Positions 26,713 through 27,832 of a stretch of 32,000 bases of DNA are shown one piece after another. Origin of the DNA: Gemmata obscuriglobus (lineage in GTDB: Bacteria; Planctomycetota; Planctomycetia; Gemmatales; Gemmataceae); NCBI RefSeq assembly GCF_008065095.1, contig NZ_CP042911.1, positions 7,980,001 through 8,012,000 of the forward strand, read 5' to 3'. Position 1 is the stretch's first letter, and every line of letters starts with the position of its first letter. Under the pieces are notes generated by a model. The model worked only from the letters and a program-made list of their open reading frames with translations, did no database searches and was not told where the DNA came from. Position numbers and translations under genes: made by a program.

Positions 26713-26752
26713 TACGGACCTCAACGCCGAACTGCCGGAGCGGTTCTGGCGC

Positions 26753-27832
26753 GTGGTGCGGAAGTGGGGCTGGTGGGGCGCGGCCTACCGGGAGGCGGTG
26801 TTCCGGTTGGCGGACCACGCGCAGAGCGCCGCCGAGCAGATCCGCGACGCGGCCCCGGCACCGGTGGCAACCGGGTGGGTGTCGCGGCCGGCGCTGGCGT
26901 CGCGGGCGGAAGGTTATGCGCTCCCACTGACGGGGCTCGATGGGGCGAACCCGCTCGCGTTCCTCGCCGCCTTGGGAACGCTCCGGTTGGCGGAGCGTGC
27001 GTACCCGGGGACTCGCCTGAGCTGGAAAGCACAAGGGAGTTGGACACCGGTTCTCCACCTTCCGCAAGAAATCACCCCAACGGCCCTAATCGCGAACCTT
27101 CTCGCACAAGCCGTTCGGACCCGACGGTGCGTCACGTTCGCTCAAGATGTCAAAATTCTGGCCGAAGAGTTTTGTGCCTTCGAGCGGGAGGCCCGTCTCG
27201 CGATCCATACCGACCGGGAGTTCTCAGAATTCCTTGTCGCTTGCGCCAATCCACTCGTAACGATCCAAGGCGGTCCGAACGCCGGGAAGACTAAACCGAC
27301 GGAGTTCTATTTCATCGCAGGTCAGCAAAAGCTGCTGAAGCAGGCTTTGGAGATCGCCACAGCCGCGACGCAAGAGCATCTCACGAAGGCGTTGTTTGCG
27401 TACTGGACTTATGACGACCCGCTTGAGGGGTTGTCGTTGAGGTGGGATCCGCGGGACGACCTTCGCTACGCGACGCGATTTCACAACCCAAGCAAGGACA
27501 AATCAAAGGGGAAGAAGGGTTCCGTCCTCGGCGCCAATCGCTTGGCGTTCGAGGCTCTGCCGCTGTTCCCGTGCTTCGCACGGGGCTCCCGTCTCGTCAC
27601 CACGGGATTCCTCGTGCTTGACCGCCGCCCATTCTTCACTTGGCCGATTTGGGAACCTGCTTGGGGGCTTAGTTCGGTGCGATCCGTACTCGGGGCTCTT
27701 GCGGCTCCGCGAGACGGGTCGGAGGTGCGACACATCAAGACGCCTGACCAAATCGGCGTGACTGTTTGTTATCAGTGCGAAAAGGTCTCAAACAGTGATT
27801 ACAGTAACTTCACTCCGTCCAGAGCGCTGTGA
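26753..27832 (+). CDS. Second Cas8u/Csb3-like protein (paralogue B); start codon uncertain
   Basis: The frame is open from 26492 to 27832, but it contains no ATG after the csb2 stop (26712). The first canonical start is GTG 26753 (GGAG 12 nt upstream); later in-frame candidates are GTG 26798/26864/26879 and TTG 26807. It contains [33 protein letters not shown], homologous by eye to DPTNPGQFFACCGLLELADRLWPGAEGWF of paralogue A. The C-terminal [15 protein letters not shown]...[19 protein letters not shown] parallels RPLLELLAFVGLQRF...ILYATWSIPLPPSVASV of A. Confidence 0.6.
   Translation: [359 protein letters not shown]

What the first reader, a model, noticed from the sequence alone, without database searches (positions are those of the whole stretch)
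26713..26900. Paralogue B has no ATG and begins with a copy of the Cas3 C-terminal tail motif, so the cas3/cas8 junction occurs twice
There is no in-frame ATG between the csb2 stop (26712) and the end of the B frame (27832). The frame just after csb2 reads [33 protein letters not shown]. That aligns closely with the last residues of Cas3, VPRRFAQLQRKYGRWGLAYLESLLRAADYAASA (about half the positions identical by eye). Part of this motif (LPERFWR) lies upstream of the first canonical start, GTG 26753. In both places the Cas3-tail motif is followed, directly at 23250 or about 35 aa later at ~26930, by the Cas8u-like N-terminal motif. I see three explanations. B may be a fusion of a relic cas3 3' end to a cas8-like gene. 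It may initiate at a non-canonical codon (CTG 26732). Or it may be reached by a +1 frameshift from csb2, since the B frame is open from 26492 and overlaps the last 221 nt of csb2.
Basis: seen in the sequence. Interest (0 to 1): 0.7.

Follow-up and report, generated by a model that had tools for sequence, protein, structure and literature searches.

The report
Leftover Cas3 tail on Cas8-like gene
The gene after csb2 in this Gemmata CRISPR locus is the surviving end of an older gene in which the Cas3 nuclease was fused to a Cas8-like subunit, so its odd Cas3-like beginning and missing ATG are a scar of past gene shuffling, not a new mechanism.

Summary
Frame B (26714-27832) has no in-frame ATG. 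Its first ~40 codons match the last residues of Cas3g: 18/34 identical to the resident Cas3 (E 1e-7), and a match to Cas3g model positions 820-854/854.

It is not a local copy of the resident cas3/cas8g2 junction. B's head is 37/41 identical to a conserved block in other Planctomycetota. There, a full Cas3g (helicase plus HD) is fused in frame, through a short linker, to the NCBIfam NF049934 domain ("type I-G Cas3-extension family"). B residues 72-369 match that domain end to end (E 2e-67).

In 79 of 80 genome loci a Cas3 tail lies just upstream of this domain. It is fused in 18 Planctomycetota loci and is a separate adjacent gene in 56. These loci normally lack cas8g2. The predicted fold of the domain best matches Cas8g of the solved I-G effector.

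The window is a hybrid locus. A cas3-cas8g2-cas7-csb2 cassette replaced cas7'-csb2'-cas3' in a fusion-type locus, leaving only the tail plus extension. Gemmata algarum shares the same junction. B's body was later swapped by recombination at 26984/26985, which left pseudogene fragment C.

The +1 frameshift and CTG-start ideas have no support. The likely start is GTG 26753. Whether B still functions is unresolved.

The parts
18662..20377 (+). cas4/cas1 fusion gene (Cas4g/Cas1g)
   Evidence: NF049935 E 1e-201. It is 80-85% identical to the cas4/1 of fusion-type Gemmataceae loci L010 and L015.
20380..20661 (+). cas2
   Evidence: TIGR01573 and PF09827.
20674..23253 (+). Resident cas3g (859 aa: helicase at the N-terminus, HD domain at the C-terminus, no extension).
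   Evidence: TIGR02621 E 9.5e-193, full length.
23116..23217 (+). C-terminal tail motif of the resident Cas3g (EVPRRFAQLQRKYGRWGLAYLESLLRAADYAASA). It is the last conserved block of the HD domain.
   Evidence: tblastn and BLASTP against the B head: 53% identity, E 1e-7 to 3e-7. It lies inside the cas3_HD match 681-846.
Its ATG overlaps the cas3 stop (ATGA).
   Evidence: TIGR04106 E 1.7e-121. Junction sequence.
24086..25213 (+). cas7g (csb1)
   Evidence: TIGR02570 E 1.2e-65.
25213..26712 (+). csb2 (Cas5-Cas6 fusion), full length, stop TAG 26710-26712.
   Evidence: TIGR02165 E 1.2e-89; protein 5-498 of 499 matches profile 2-491/492.
26723..26839 (+). Relic of the 3' end of a fusion-type cas3g ([39 protein letters not shown]). 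It begins about 10 nt after the csb2 stop.
   Evidence: It aligns column for column with the conserved block between the HD domain and the linker in Cas3::extension proteins, 37/41 identical to their consensus. TIGR02621 positions 820-854. GC3 is 0.97 in this frame.
26753..27832 (+). Gene B as annotated (GobsT_67660, 359 aa, GTG start). It is a truncated Cas3-tail::Cas8g-like extension protein.
   Evidence: P0001 is 100% identical, 359 aa. GTG 26753 is the first canonical start. GGAG lies 12 nt upstream, against 6-8 nt for the neighbouring cas genes.
26840..26926 (+). Pro/Ala-rich linker between the tail relic and the extension domain.
   Evidence: This stretch is variable and low-complexity in all fusion proteins. 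Most substitutions against G. algarum fall here.
26927..27820 (+). NF049934 'type I-G Cas3-extension' domain. It has a Cas8g-like fold and starts with [19 protein letters not shown].
   Evidence: NF049934 E 2.1e-67, 227.9 bits (cut-off 65), profile 1-298/299. AF2 model pLDDT 81, pTM 0.85. Foldseek top hit is 8b2x, the type I-G effector, E 5.5e-7.
26984..26985 (.). Recombination breakpoint inside the conserved LAALGTL motif. The resident high-GC head lies to the left and a foreign lower-GC body to the right.
   Evidence: Identity to G. algarum L014 is 98.3% over 22990-26984 and then stops. GC drops from 0.744 (GC3 0.90) to 0.587 (GC3 0.67).
27856..28417 (+). Fragment C: pseudogenised 3' half of the original (P0005-type) extension domain, displaced when B's body was replaced.
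   Evidence: NF049934 E 3.4e-14, below the cut-off. 93.5% identical to L014 10654-10823. It carries a 72-nt duplication, a +1 insertion and a -1 deletion relative to the intact G. algarum gene.
28614..28641 (+). Promoter-like site in the CRISPR leader (TTGCGA-16-TATAAT).
   Evidence: 1 site found against 0.1 expected.
28656..31981 (+). CRISPR array. The repeat is GTTCTCCGCGGCTCATAGCCGCGGCCGAATTGAAGC, period about 72, and the array runs to the window end.
   Evidence: Closely related repeats follow the extension domain in fusion-type loci L010 and L028.

Best explanation
B is the 5'-truncated remnant of a fusion-type cas3g gene.

In Planctomycetota, a second variant of type I-G has the gene order cas4/1-cas2-cas7'-csb2'-cas3'. 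Its Cas3 (helicase plus C-terminal HD) continues in frame, through a Pro/Ala-rich linker of about 35 residues, into a roughly 300-residue Cas8g-like domain (NCBIfam NF049934). In other phyla the same domain is a separate gene whose ATG overlaps the cas3 stop. These loci normally have no cas8g1 or cas8g2, so the domain is their likely large subunit. It is tethered or adjacent to Cas3, which fits the published finding that Cas3 binds I-G Cascade through Cas8g.

In an ancestor of the G. obscuriglobus and G. algarum locus, a self-contained cas3-cas8g2-cas7-csb2 cassette replaced cas7'-csb2' and all but the last ~39 codons of cas3'. That put the csb2 stop about 10 nt upstream of '...[14 protein letters not shown]...'. 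The surviving piece is the last helix of the HD domain, the linker and the Cas8g-like domain. It has no ATG because it was never the start of a gene.

If it is translated, initiation is most likely at GTG 26753, or at TTG 26807. Each sits 11-12 nt downstream of a GGAG(G). The product would be a stand-alone Cas8g-like protein carrying a vestigial, catalytically meaningless Cas3 peptide.

Later, in G. obscuriglobus, recombination within the conserved [17 protein letters not shown] motif replaced the body of the domain with a different, lower-GC allele. The old 3' half was left behind as pseudogene fragment C.

Shown here: the homologies, the synteny, the breakpoints and the shared junction. Inferred: the order of events, the start codon and the large-subunit role of the domain. 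Whether B is still functional is open; I lean towards a recent, weakly constrained relic.
For: - Family membership: B residues 72-369 match NF049934 end to end (E 2e-67). Residues 5-39 match the last 35 positions of the Cas3g model.
- Homologues: those covering 99% of B are longer and carry Cas3 HD domains. B's head aligns exactly with their conserved [40 protein letters not shown] block and is 37/41 identical to it.
- 80 species-representative loci: the Cas3 tail lies less than 400 nt upstream of the domain in 79. It is in the same frame in 23. In 18 of those the frame is open for more than 800 codons and covers a full Cas3; all 18 are Planctomycetota. It is in a different frame, as adjacent genes, in 56. 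cas8g2 is nearby in only 3 loci. One example is a 1398-aa fusion in L050.
- Separate-gene loci read cas7-csb2-cas3-ext-cas4/1-cas2 with no other large subunit.
- Shared junction: G. algarum L014 has the same csb2-stop/tail junction at 97-98% DNA identity and an intact 380-codon tail::extension frame.
- Cassette origin: stand-alone cas3-cas8g2-cas7-csb2 cassettes in related Planctomycetota have no tail or extension after csb2 and no cas4/1, cas2 or related repeat. The window's cas4/1 and cas2 are 80-91% identical to those of fusion-type Gemmataceae loci, while cas7 and csb2 are only 25-30% identical to theirs. CRISPR repeats after the extension match in L010 and L028.
- Breakpoint at 26984/26985, the GC shift, and fragment C.
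- Fold: the AF2 model (pTM 0.85) best matches Cas8g of PDB 8b2x (E 5.5e-7), then the I-A and I-B Cascade entries 7tr6_C and 8ip0_J.
- Independent parallel: Phycisphaeraceae locus L031 has the csb2 stop followed directly by '...WWGLAYLEAMLRLADHAVSAAE...*' and then ATGA and the extension gene. That is a separate deletion of cas3.
- Cas3 binds I-G Cascade via Cas8g (PMC9638904).
Against: - The order of events is inferred from present-day synteny. Cassette replacement is not distinguished from a tandem arrangement followed by deletion. No donor locus was identified.
- The two Gemmata loci are ~98% identical, so they probably share one recent event. They give little independent evidence on selection.
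- pN/pS of the B head is 0.45, from 11 differences. That is higher than 0.08-0.10 for cas2 and csb2, and by my estimate (no formal test run) not clearly below neutrality. Head divergence (4.1%) is similar to the non-coding leader (3.8%).
- Sequence similarity between the extension domain and Cas8g2 is weak (hhalign E 0.007). The Cas8g2 model gives no significant PDB hit. The 'Cas8-like' label rests mainly on one Foldseek match to a low-resolution, model-derived chain.
- No expression data were available, so the start codon is a guess.
Confidence: 0.85

Rival explanations
1. Local duplication: the 3' end of the resident cas3 together with the start of cas8g2 was copied downstream of csb2, and B is a diverged paralogue of cas8g2 carrying that copy.
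For: Both places show a Cas3 tail followed by an NP..F.A..G.L.LA motif. The cas3-then-large-subunit order is the same in both.
Against: - The tails are only 53% identical in protein and about 65-70% in DNA. B's tail is 90% identical to the fusion-type Cas3 consensus and 93-95% identical to L010 and L073.
- B matches NF049934, not TIGR04106. None of 21 family members hits TIGR04106 at E <= 1.
- The profile-profile match covers only 55 N-terminal columns.
- The head has a different GC content from cas8g2 (0.74 against 0.54).
Confidence: 0.03
2. B is made by a programmed +1 ribosomal frameshift near the end of csb2, which would give a Csb2-B fusion protein.
For: Frame B is +1 to csb2 and is open from 26426, overlapping the end of csb2. 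B has no ATG.
Against: - csb2 is complete against its model and ends like its homologues.
- In the overlap, GC by codon position shows a coding signature in the csb2 frame (0.78/0.55/0.87). In frame B the pattern is non-coding (0.55/0.87/0.78).
- Frame B upstream of 26713 has no similarity to Cas3 (by eye). Long open off-frames are expected at 73% GC.
- In related loci csb2 and cas3 are separate genes.
Confidence: 0.02
3. Translation starts at a non-canonical codon (CTG 26732 or ACG 26714), so the whole Cas3-tail motif is part of a functional B protein. The tail would be retained for a reason, for example contact with Cas3 or Cascade.
For: - The codons upstream of GTG 26753 ([10 protein letters not shown]) are still identical to the fusion consensus and identical in G. 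algarum.
- The tail block has GC3 of 0.97 and only one changed codon between the two species.
Against: - The two loci are ~98% identical and the truncation may be recent, so this conservation carries little weight.
- Stand-alone family members (300-325 aa, the majority) lack the tail entirely, so the domain does not need it.
- Without the rest of the HD fold the helix has no catalytic residues (inference from the TIGR01596 match).
- No Shine-Dalgarno-like element lies upstream of CTG 26732.
Confidence: 0.07
4. B is a non-functional relic (pseudogene in waiting). It is transcribed with the operon at most, is not needed, and is simply too young to have decayed.
For: - Its cognate Cas7' and Csb2' partners are gone. 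The resident Cas7 and Csb2 are only 25-30% identical to them, and the cassette brings its own Cas8g2.
- There is no ATG, and the Shine-Dalgarno spacing is poor (11-12 nt against 6-8 nt for the neighbouring genes).
- The head evolves at about the rate of the non-coding leader, with pN/pS 0.45.
- The adjacent fragment C is visibly decaying.
- Similar scars exist elsewhere: L050, L031, L015, L002.
Against: - The 372-codon frame is intact.
- B keeps all 36 invariant columns and all but 2 of the nearly invariant columns of the family alignment.
- The G. algarum counterpart is also intact.
- The body swap produced another intact allele rather than a broken one.
Confidence: 0.55

Closest known systems
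NCBIfam NF049934 (adjac_Cas3_IG): type I-G CRISPR-associated protein, Cas3-extension family
   Same: B residues 72-369 match the whole profile (1-298/299), 227.9 bits against a cut-off of 65. As the family name implies, the domain follows a Cas3g C-terminus in 79 of 80 loci.
   Different: In B only the last ~39 residues of Cas3 precede the domain. The gene sits after csb2 rather than after an intact cas3, in a locus that also has cas8g2. Its body is a recombinant of two alleles.
Cas3g::extension fusion proteins of Planctomycetota (for example the 1398-aa ORF in L050, and L010, L015, L052)
   Same: They share the same tail block, linker and domain in one frame. L010 is 68% identical to B over residues 4-366.
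   Different: They carry the complete helicase and HD domains, about 820-1000 extra N-terminal residues. B has lost these.
Cas8g1 (Csx17), large subunit of the Thioalkalivibrio sulfidiphilus type I-G Cascade (PDB 8b2x; PMC9638904)
   Same: It is the best structural match of the AF2 model of B's domain (Foldseek E 5.5e-7, probability 1.0, TMq 0.53). Cas8g is the subunit that holds Cas3 on Cascade, which makes a Cas3-Cas8g-like fusion sensible.
   Different: Cas8g1 is 649 aa, and the paper describes a Cas11-like helical C-terminal domain. B's domain is about 300 aa; which part of Cas8g it matches was not resolved here. There is no detectable sequence similarity to any solved structure (0 hits at E <= 1).
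Cas8g2 / Csb3 (TIGR04106), encoded at 23250-24089 in the same locus
   Same: Similar size (279 against about 300 aa), the same position directly after cas3, a shared N-terminal beta-alpha-beta-beta pattern and the NP..F.A..G.L.LA motif.
   Different: There is no HMM cross-hit. hhalign covers only 55 columns at E 0.007. The two are almost mutually exclusive across loci.

Membership tests
NF049934 type I-G Cas3-extension family | Score above the curated cut-off, with full-length profile coverage. | tested here: met
   227.9 bits against a cut-off of 65; profile 1-298/299; E 2.1e-67.
NF049934 type I-G Cas3-extension family | Encoded immediately after, or fused to, the C-terminus of a type I-G Cas3. 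| tested here: inconclusive
   Only a 39-codon Cas3 tail relic precedes it. The intact cas3g of the locus is 3.5 kb upstream and is followed by cas8g2. The family rule itself holds in 79 of 80 loci.
NF049934 type I-G Cas3-extension family | Conserved residues of the family are retained. | tested here: met
   B has all 36 invariant columns of a 28-sequence alignment and all but 2 of the nearly invariant columns.
Cas3g (TIGR02621) / Cas3 HD nuclease (TIGR01596) | Helicase motifs and the HD metal-binding residues; score above the cut-off. | tested here: not met
   Only model positions 820-854/854 match, at 27.1 bits against a cut-off of 400. There is no HD or helicase Pfam hit. B is not a Cas3.
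Cas8g2 / Csb3 (TIGR04106) | HMM match above the cut-off. | tested here: not met
   No hit for B or for any of 21 family members at E <= 1. Only weak N-terminal profile similarity.
Cas8-type large subunit of type I Cascade (functional class) | Cas8-like fold. | tested here: met
   Foldseek against PDB: 8b2x (I-G Cas8g) E 5.5e-7, then 7tr6_C (I-A Cascade entry) E 0.018 and 8ip0_J (I-B Cascade entry) E 0.087.
Cas8-type large subunit of type I Cascade (functional class) | Physically assembles with the Cas7/Cas5 backbone and crRNA, recognises the PAM and recruits Cas3. | not testable with these tools
   Only indirect evidence: loci carrying this domain lack any other large-subunit gene.
Programmed +1 frameshift gene pair | The upstream gene lacks its normal end, or the overlap is coding in both frames, with a conserved slippery or shift site. 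| tested here: not met
   csb2 is complete. The overlap has a coding signature only in the csb2 frame.

The most novel reading that the evidence does not exclude
B is not a dead relic but a working second large subunit or adaptor. The Gemmata I-G system would then keep two Cas8g-class proteins (Cas8g2 and the tail::extension protein). That could give alternative Cascade forms, for example with different PAM or Cas3-recruitment properties. Alternatively, the retained Cas3-tail helix could let B compete with or dock onto Cas3. More broadly, NF049934 would be a third, uncharacterised class of I-G large subunit that is naturally fused to Cas3, giving a single-chain Cas3-Cas8 nuclease-recruiter.
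Probability: 0.2. Interest if true: 0.55.

Novelty: new member of a known kind. Interest (0 to 1): 0.3.

Why it matters
The odd features of B are no ATG, a Cas3-like beginning and an overlapping open frame. All three are explained by ordinary gene history, so no new translation mechanism needs to be invoked. Annotation can name the gene: a truncated type I-G Cas3-extension family protein.

The wider picture is modestly useful for CRISPR biology. Type I-G exists in two circularly permuted effector layouts: cas3-cas8g2-cas7-csb2 and cas7-csb2-cas3-extension. These exchange as cassettes and leave recognisable scars in several lineages.

The poorly described 'Cas3-extension' domain looks like a short Cas8g-class large subunit that is often covalently fused to Cas3. 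Natural Cas3-Cas8 fusions could matter for compact type I genome-editing tools. They also fit the finding that Cas3 is an integral, Cas8g-bound subunit of I-G Cascade.

Tried and rejected
- P0006 (375 aa, 'MPERFWR...') looked like an independent tail-only form with a proper start. Its 1276-nt contig begins with an Illumina adapter, and the 'M' is a TTG called at the contig edge. Rejected.
- P0003 (303 aa, the closest stand-alone relative of B's body) sits on a 1.2x-coverage contig with Cas3, tail and domain scattered over three frames. This is probably sequencing error and is uninformative.
- P0011, P0025 and P0035 seemed to start inside the HD domain.
  - P0035 follows an in-frame TAA in an otherwise continuous Cas3::extension frame.
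  - P0011 lies in a locus of fragmented cas genes.
  - P0025 was not looked up.
- P0021 is cut by an IS element. P0017 is an orphan HD-extension gene with no other cas genes nearby.
- The profile-profile comparison of the extension family with Cas8g2 gave only a weak N-terminal match. The sequence search of the PDB gave nothing. The Cas8g2 model gave no significant fold hit. A common origin of the two proteins therefore remains unproven.
- Literature searches for a Cas3-Cas8 fusion, a 'Cas3-extension' protein, Cas8g2/Cas8g3, or Gemmata CRISPR found nothing on this family. The Makarova 2020 classification paper is not held.
- The terminator scan found none between csb2, B and the array, so it gives no evidence for or against co-transcription beyond that.
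- Selection analysis between G. obscuriglobus and G. algarum has too few differences in the head (11) to decide between relaxed constraint and neutrality.
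Full report
**1. What is in the window**

The window comes from Gemmata obscuriglobus. The annotated product of B (P0001, GobsT_67660) is 100% identical.

The + strand carries a type I-G CRISPR-Cas locus:

| Gene | Coordinates | Notes |
|---|---|---|
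| cas4/cas1 | 18662-20377 | |
| cas2 | 20380-20661 | |
| cas3g | 20674-23253 | 859 aa; helicase N-terminal, HD C-terminal |
| cas8g2/csb3 | 23250-24089 | |
| cas7g/csb1 | 24086-25213 | |
| csb2 | 25213-26712 | |
| frame B | 26714-27832 | |
| fragment C | 27845-28417 | short related ORF |
| CRISPR array | 28656 to window end | 36-nt repeat |

**2. Checking the observation**

- There is no in-frame ATG from 26714 to 27829.
- Frame B is +1 relative to csb2. It is open from 26426 and its first ATG is at 26492.
- The first canonical start after the csb2 stop (TAG 26710-26712) is GTG 26753. That is the GenBank start, giving 359 aa.
- The similarity to the end of Cas3 is significant. BLASTP gives 18/34 identities, E 1e-7. 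HMMER puts B residues 5-39 on the last 35 positions of the Cas3g model TIGR02621 (E 1.8e-6).
- That stretch of Cas3 is the last conserved block of its HD domain; the cas3_HD match runs over 681-846.
- The resemblance of B residues 73-145 to the N-terminus of Cas8g2 is real but weak: 32% identity, E 6e-5, and hhalign E 0.007 over 55 columns.

**3. What B is**

B residues 72-369 match NCBIfam NF049934 from end to end. NCBI names this family 'type I-G CRISPR-associated protein, Cas3-extension family' (227.9 bits, cut-off 65).

A search of 5.8 billion proteins found 430 relatives. They fall into two groups:
- Most are 300-325 aa and cover only about 81% of B. They lack the tail.
- A minority cover 99% of B, are longer, and carry Cas3 HD Pfam domains.

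Aligned, the longer proteins have a full HD domain, then a highly conserved block [40 protein letters not shown], then a variable Pro/Ala-rich linker, then the [17 protein letters not shown] start of the extension domain. B's first residues ([42 protein letters not shown]) align with that block column for column.

B is 37/41 identical to the block. The resident Cas3 tail is 18/41 identical (hand count from the same sequences).

So the tail in B is not a copy of the resident cas3 end. It is the end of a different, fusion-type cas3.

**4. Synteny of the family**

I fetched 80 loci from species-representative genomes and mapped the window's Cas proteins onto them.

- In 79 loci a Cas3 tail lies less than 400 nt upstream of the extension domain.
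- In 56 loci the tail is in another frame. Here cas3 (about 1020 aa) and a 300-320-aa extension gene are adjacent, typically overlapping by 4 nt. The order is cas7-csb2-cas3-ext-cas4/1-cas2.
- In 23 loci the tail is in the same frame. In 18 of these the frame is open for more than 800 codons and spans a whole Cas3g. All 18 are Planctomycetota. One example is the 1398-aa ORF of L050.
- Only 3 loci have any cas8g2 signal within 10 kb:
  - L014, which is the Gemmata algarum locus discussed below.
  - L050, which has a 30-residue relic.
  - L072, which has two complete separate loci.

The extension is therefore the only candidate large subunit in its native loci.

An AlphaFold2 model of B's domain (pLDDT 81, pTM 0.85) finds the Cas8g chain of the solved I-G effector (8b2x) as its only significant PDB match (E 5.5e-7, TMq 0.53). 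The type I-A and I-B Cascade entries 7tr6_C and 8ip0_J come next. Cas3 is known to bind I-G Cascade stably through Cas8g (PMC9638904). A natural Cas3-Cas8g-like fusion is therefore mechanistically sensible.

**5. How the window's arrangement arose**

Gemmata algarum (L014) has the same layout. It has cas4/1, cas2, cas3, cas8g2, cas7 and csb2, and then the same tail directly after the csb2 stop.
- DNA identity is 97-98% up to window position 26984.
- Its tail::extension frame is intact.

Related Planctomycetota carry cas3-cas8g2-cas7-csb2 as a self-contained cassette. After csb2 these cassettes have no tail and no extension, and they have no cas4/1, cas2 or related repeats within 10 kb.

By contrast:
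- The window's cas4/1 and cas2 are 80-91% identical to those of fusion-type Gemmataceae loci (L010, L015).
- Its cas7 and csb2 are only 25-30% identical to theirs.
- Related repeats follow the extension domain in L010 and L028.

The simplest reading is this. A cas8g2-type effector cassette replaced cas7'-csb2' and about 95% of cas3' inside a fusion-type locus. The last ~39 codons of cas3', the linker and the extension were left behind.

A Phycisphaeraceae locus (L031) shows an independent, nearly identical scar. The csb2 stop is followed immediately by '...WWGLAYLEAMLRLADHAVSAAE...*' and then ATGA and the extension gene.

**6. Later history in G. obscuriglobus**

Identity to G. algarum ends abruptly at 26984/26985, inside the conserved LAALGTL codons. 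At that point GC falls from 0.744 (GC3 0.90) to 0.587 (GC3 0.67).

- Window 26985-27855, which holds B's body and its stop, has no counterpart in G. algarum. It belongs to the P0002/L010 subtype, 64-68% identical.
- Homology to G. algarum resumes at 27856.
- Fragment C is the displaced 3' half of the original, P0005-type extension. It now carries a 72-nt duplication, a +1 insertion and a -1 deletion.

B is thus a recombinant: a resident head joined to a foreign body.

**7. Start codon and the frameshift idea**

csb2 is complete against its model.

| Region | Frame | GC at codon positions 1/2/3 |
|---|---|---|
| Last 221 nt of csb2 | csb2 frame | 0.78/0.55/0.87 (coding-like) |
| Last 221 nt of csb2 | frame B | 0.55/0.87/0.78 |
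| Tail block | frame B | 0.70/0.55/0.97 (coding-like) |

Frame B upstream of 26713 has no similarity to Cas3 (by eye), so a frameshift has no support.

Nothing supports CTG 26732 either.

GTG 26753 and TTG 26807 each lie 11-12 nt downstream of a GGAG(G). The neighbouring cas genes have a GAGG-like element 6-8 nt upstream of their starts. B therefore has a makeshift initiation region, as expected for an accidental 5' end.

**8. Is B still functional?**

This is unresolved.

For function:
- The frame is intact, and so is the G. algarum counterpart.
- All family-invariant residues are retained.

Against function:
- The cognate Cas7' and Csb2' partners are gone, and Cas8g2 is present.
- The translation signals are poor.
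- Between the two Gemmata species the head has pN/pS 0.45, against 0.08-0.10 for cas2 and csb2. Its divergence (4.1%) is like the non-coding leader (3.8%).
- Decaying fragment C lies next door.

I lean towards a young, weakly constrained relic (about 0.55). A functional stand-alone Cas8g-like protein gets about 0.2-0.3.

**9. Comparison with what is known, and novelty**

The family is curated by NCBI (NF049934). The link between the domain and the Cas3 C-terminus is implicit in its name. I found no paper describing it.

B is a truncated, recombinant member of that family. It is not a Cas3 (27 bits against a cut-off of 400) and not a Cas8g2 (no HMM hit).

The finding is an evolutionary scar, not a new mechanism.

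By-products of some interest:
- The two circularly permuted I-G effector layouts.
- Repeated cassette exchange between them, seen as scars in the window, L014, L031, L050 and L015.
- Structural evidence that the 'Cas3-extension' is a short Cas8g-class subunit often fused to Cas3.

Noticed in passing
window 27856-28417: Fragment C is a pseudogenised 3' half of a second, different-subtype extension domain. Relative to the intact G. algarum gene it has a 72-nt internal duplication ([11 protein letters not shown] appears twice), a +1 insertion and a compensating -1 deletion. It ends at the same PDRVI stop, 239 nt before the CRISPR array.
   Followed up: yes
window 22166-22989 (inside cas3g): The locus is mosaic relative to Gemmata algarum. 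An ~820-nt stretch of cas3 gives no BLAST alignment, and overall Cas3 identity is only 76%. By contrast cas8g2 and cas7 are 99.8-99.9% identical in DNA, and cas4/1 and csb2 about 98%. This suggests repeated recombination or lateral exchange between species.
   Followed up: partly
window 28614-28641: A strong sigma-70-like promoter match (TTGCGA-16-TATAAT, 10/12) lies 15 nt upstream of the first CRISPR repeat. It is probably the leader promoter.
   Followed up: no
L031 5400-5560 (Phycisphaeraceae MAG SLDI01000593.1): An independent, near-total deletion of cas3. The csb2 stop is followed at once by the last ~33 codons of cas3 (WWGLAYLEAMLRLADHAVSAAE...) and then the ATGA start of the extension gene. 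No cas3 is present on the 7-kb contig.
   Followed up: partly
L050 2464-3108 (Planctomycetaceae MAG JAYVSE010000065.1): A reciprocal scar. An ORF upstream of a fusion-type locus begins with 26 residues that are 77% identical to the Cas8g2 N-terminus (VDLTNPGQFFACCGLLELADR) and then degenerates. The same MAG also has a separate complete cas3-cas8g2-cas7-csb2 cassette (L093).
   Followed up: partly
L015 11109-11909 (Gemmata sp. IIL30): Directly after the Cas3::extension gene lies a fragment matching residues 264-496 of the window-type Csb2 at 41% identity. That is higher than the 25-28% typical of the fusion-type csb2'. It looks like another cassette-exchange scar.
   Followed up: no
L001/L022 9917-9919 (Gemmataceae MAG JAXMAY010000011.1): The Cas3::extension reading frame is interrupted by a single in-frame TAA inside the HD domain (AKSA*PPRTPQER...). 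The annotation therefore splits it into a 772-aa helicase and a 433-aa 'hypothetical' protein.
   Followed up: partly
L072 (Candidatus Entotheonella MAG), 3300-20800: Both I-G variants sit side by side on opposite strands: cas4/1-cas3-ext-cas7-csb2 and cas3-cas8g2-cas7-csb2. This shows they can co-reside and so have the opportunity to recombine.
   Followed up: no
L090 1-29: A public metagenome contig (ERZ27314335 k141_390309) starts with an Illumina adapter sequence. The gene call on it (P0006) has a spurious TTG 'M' start inside the Cas3 tail.
   Followed up: yes
L007-L009 (JGI metagenomes): An identical 570-aa HD-plus-extension protein (no helicase) recurs in three samples with no other cas genes nearby. 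It sits next to a divergent HerA-like (DUF87) gene pair. It is either an orphan relic or a recruited module.
   Followed up: no
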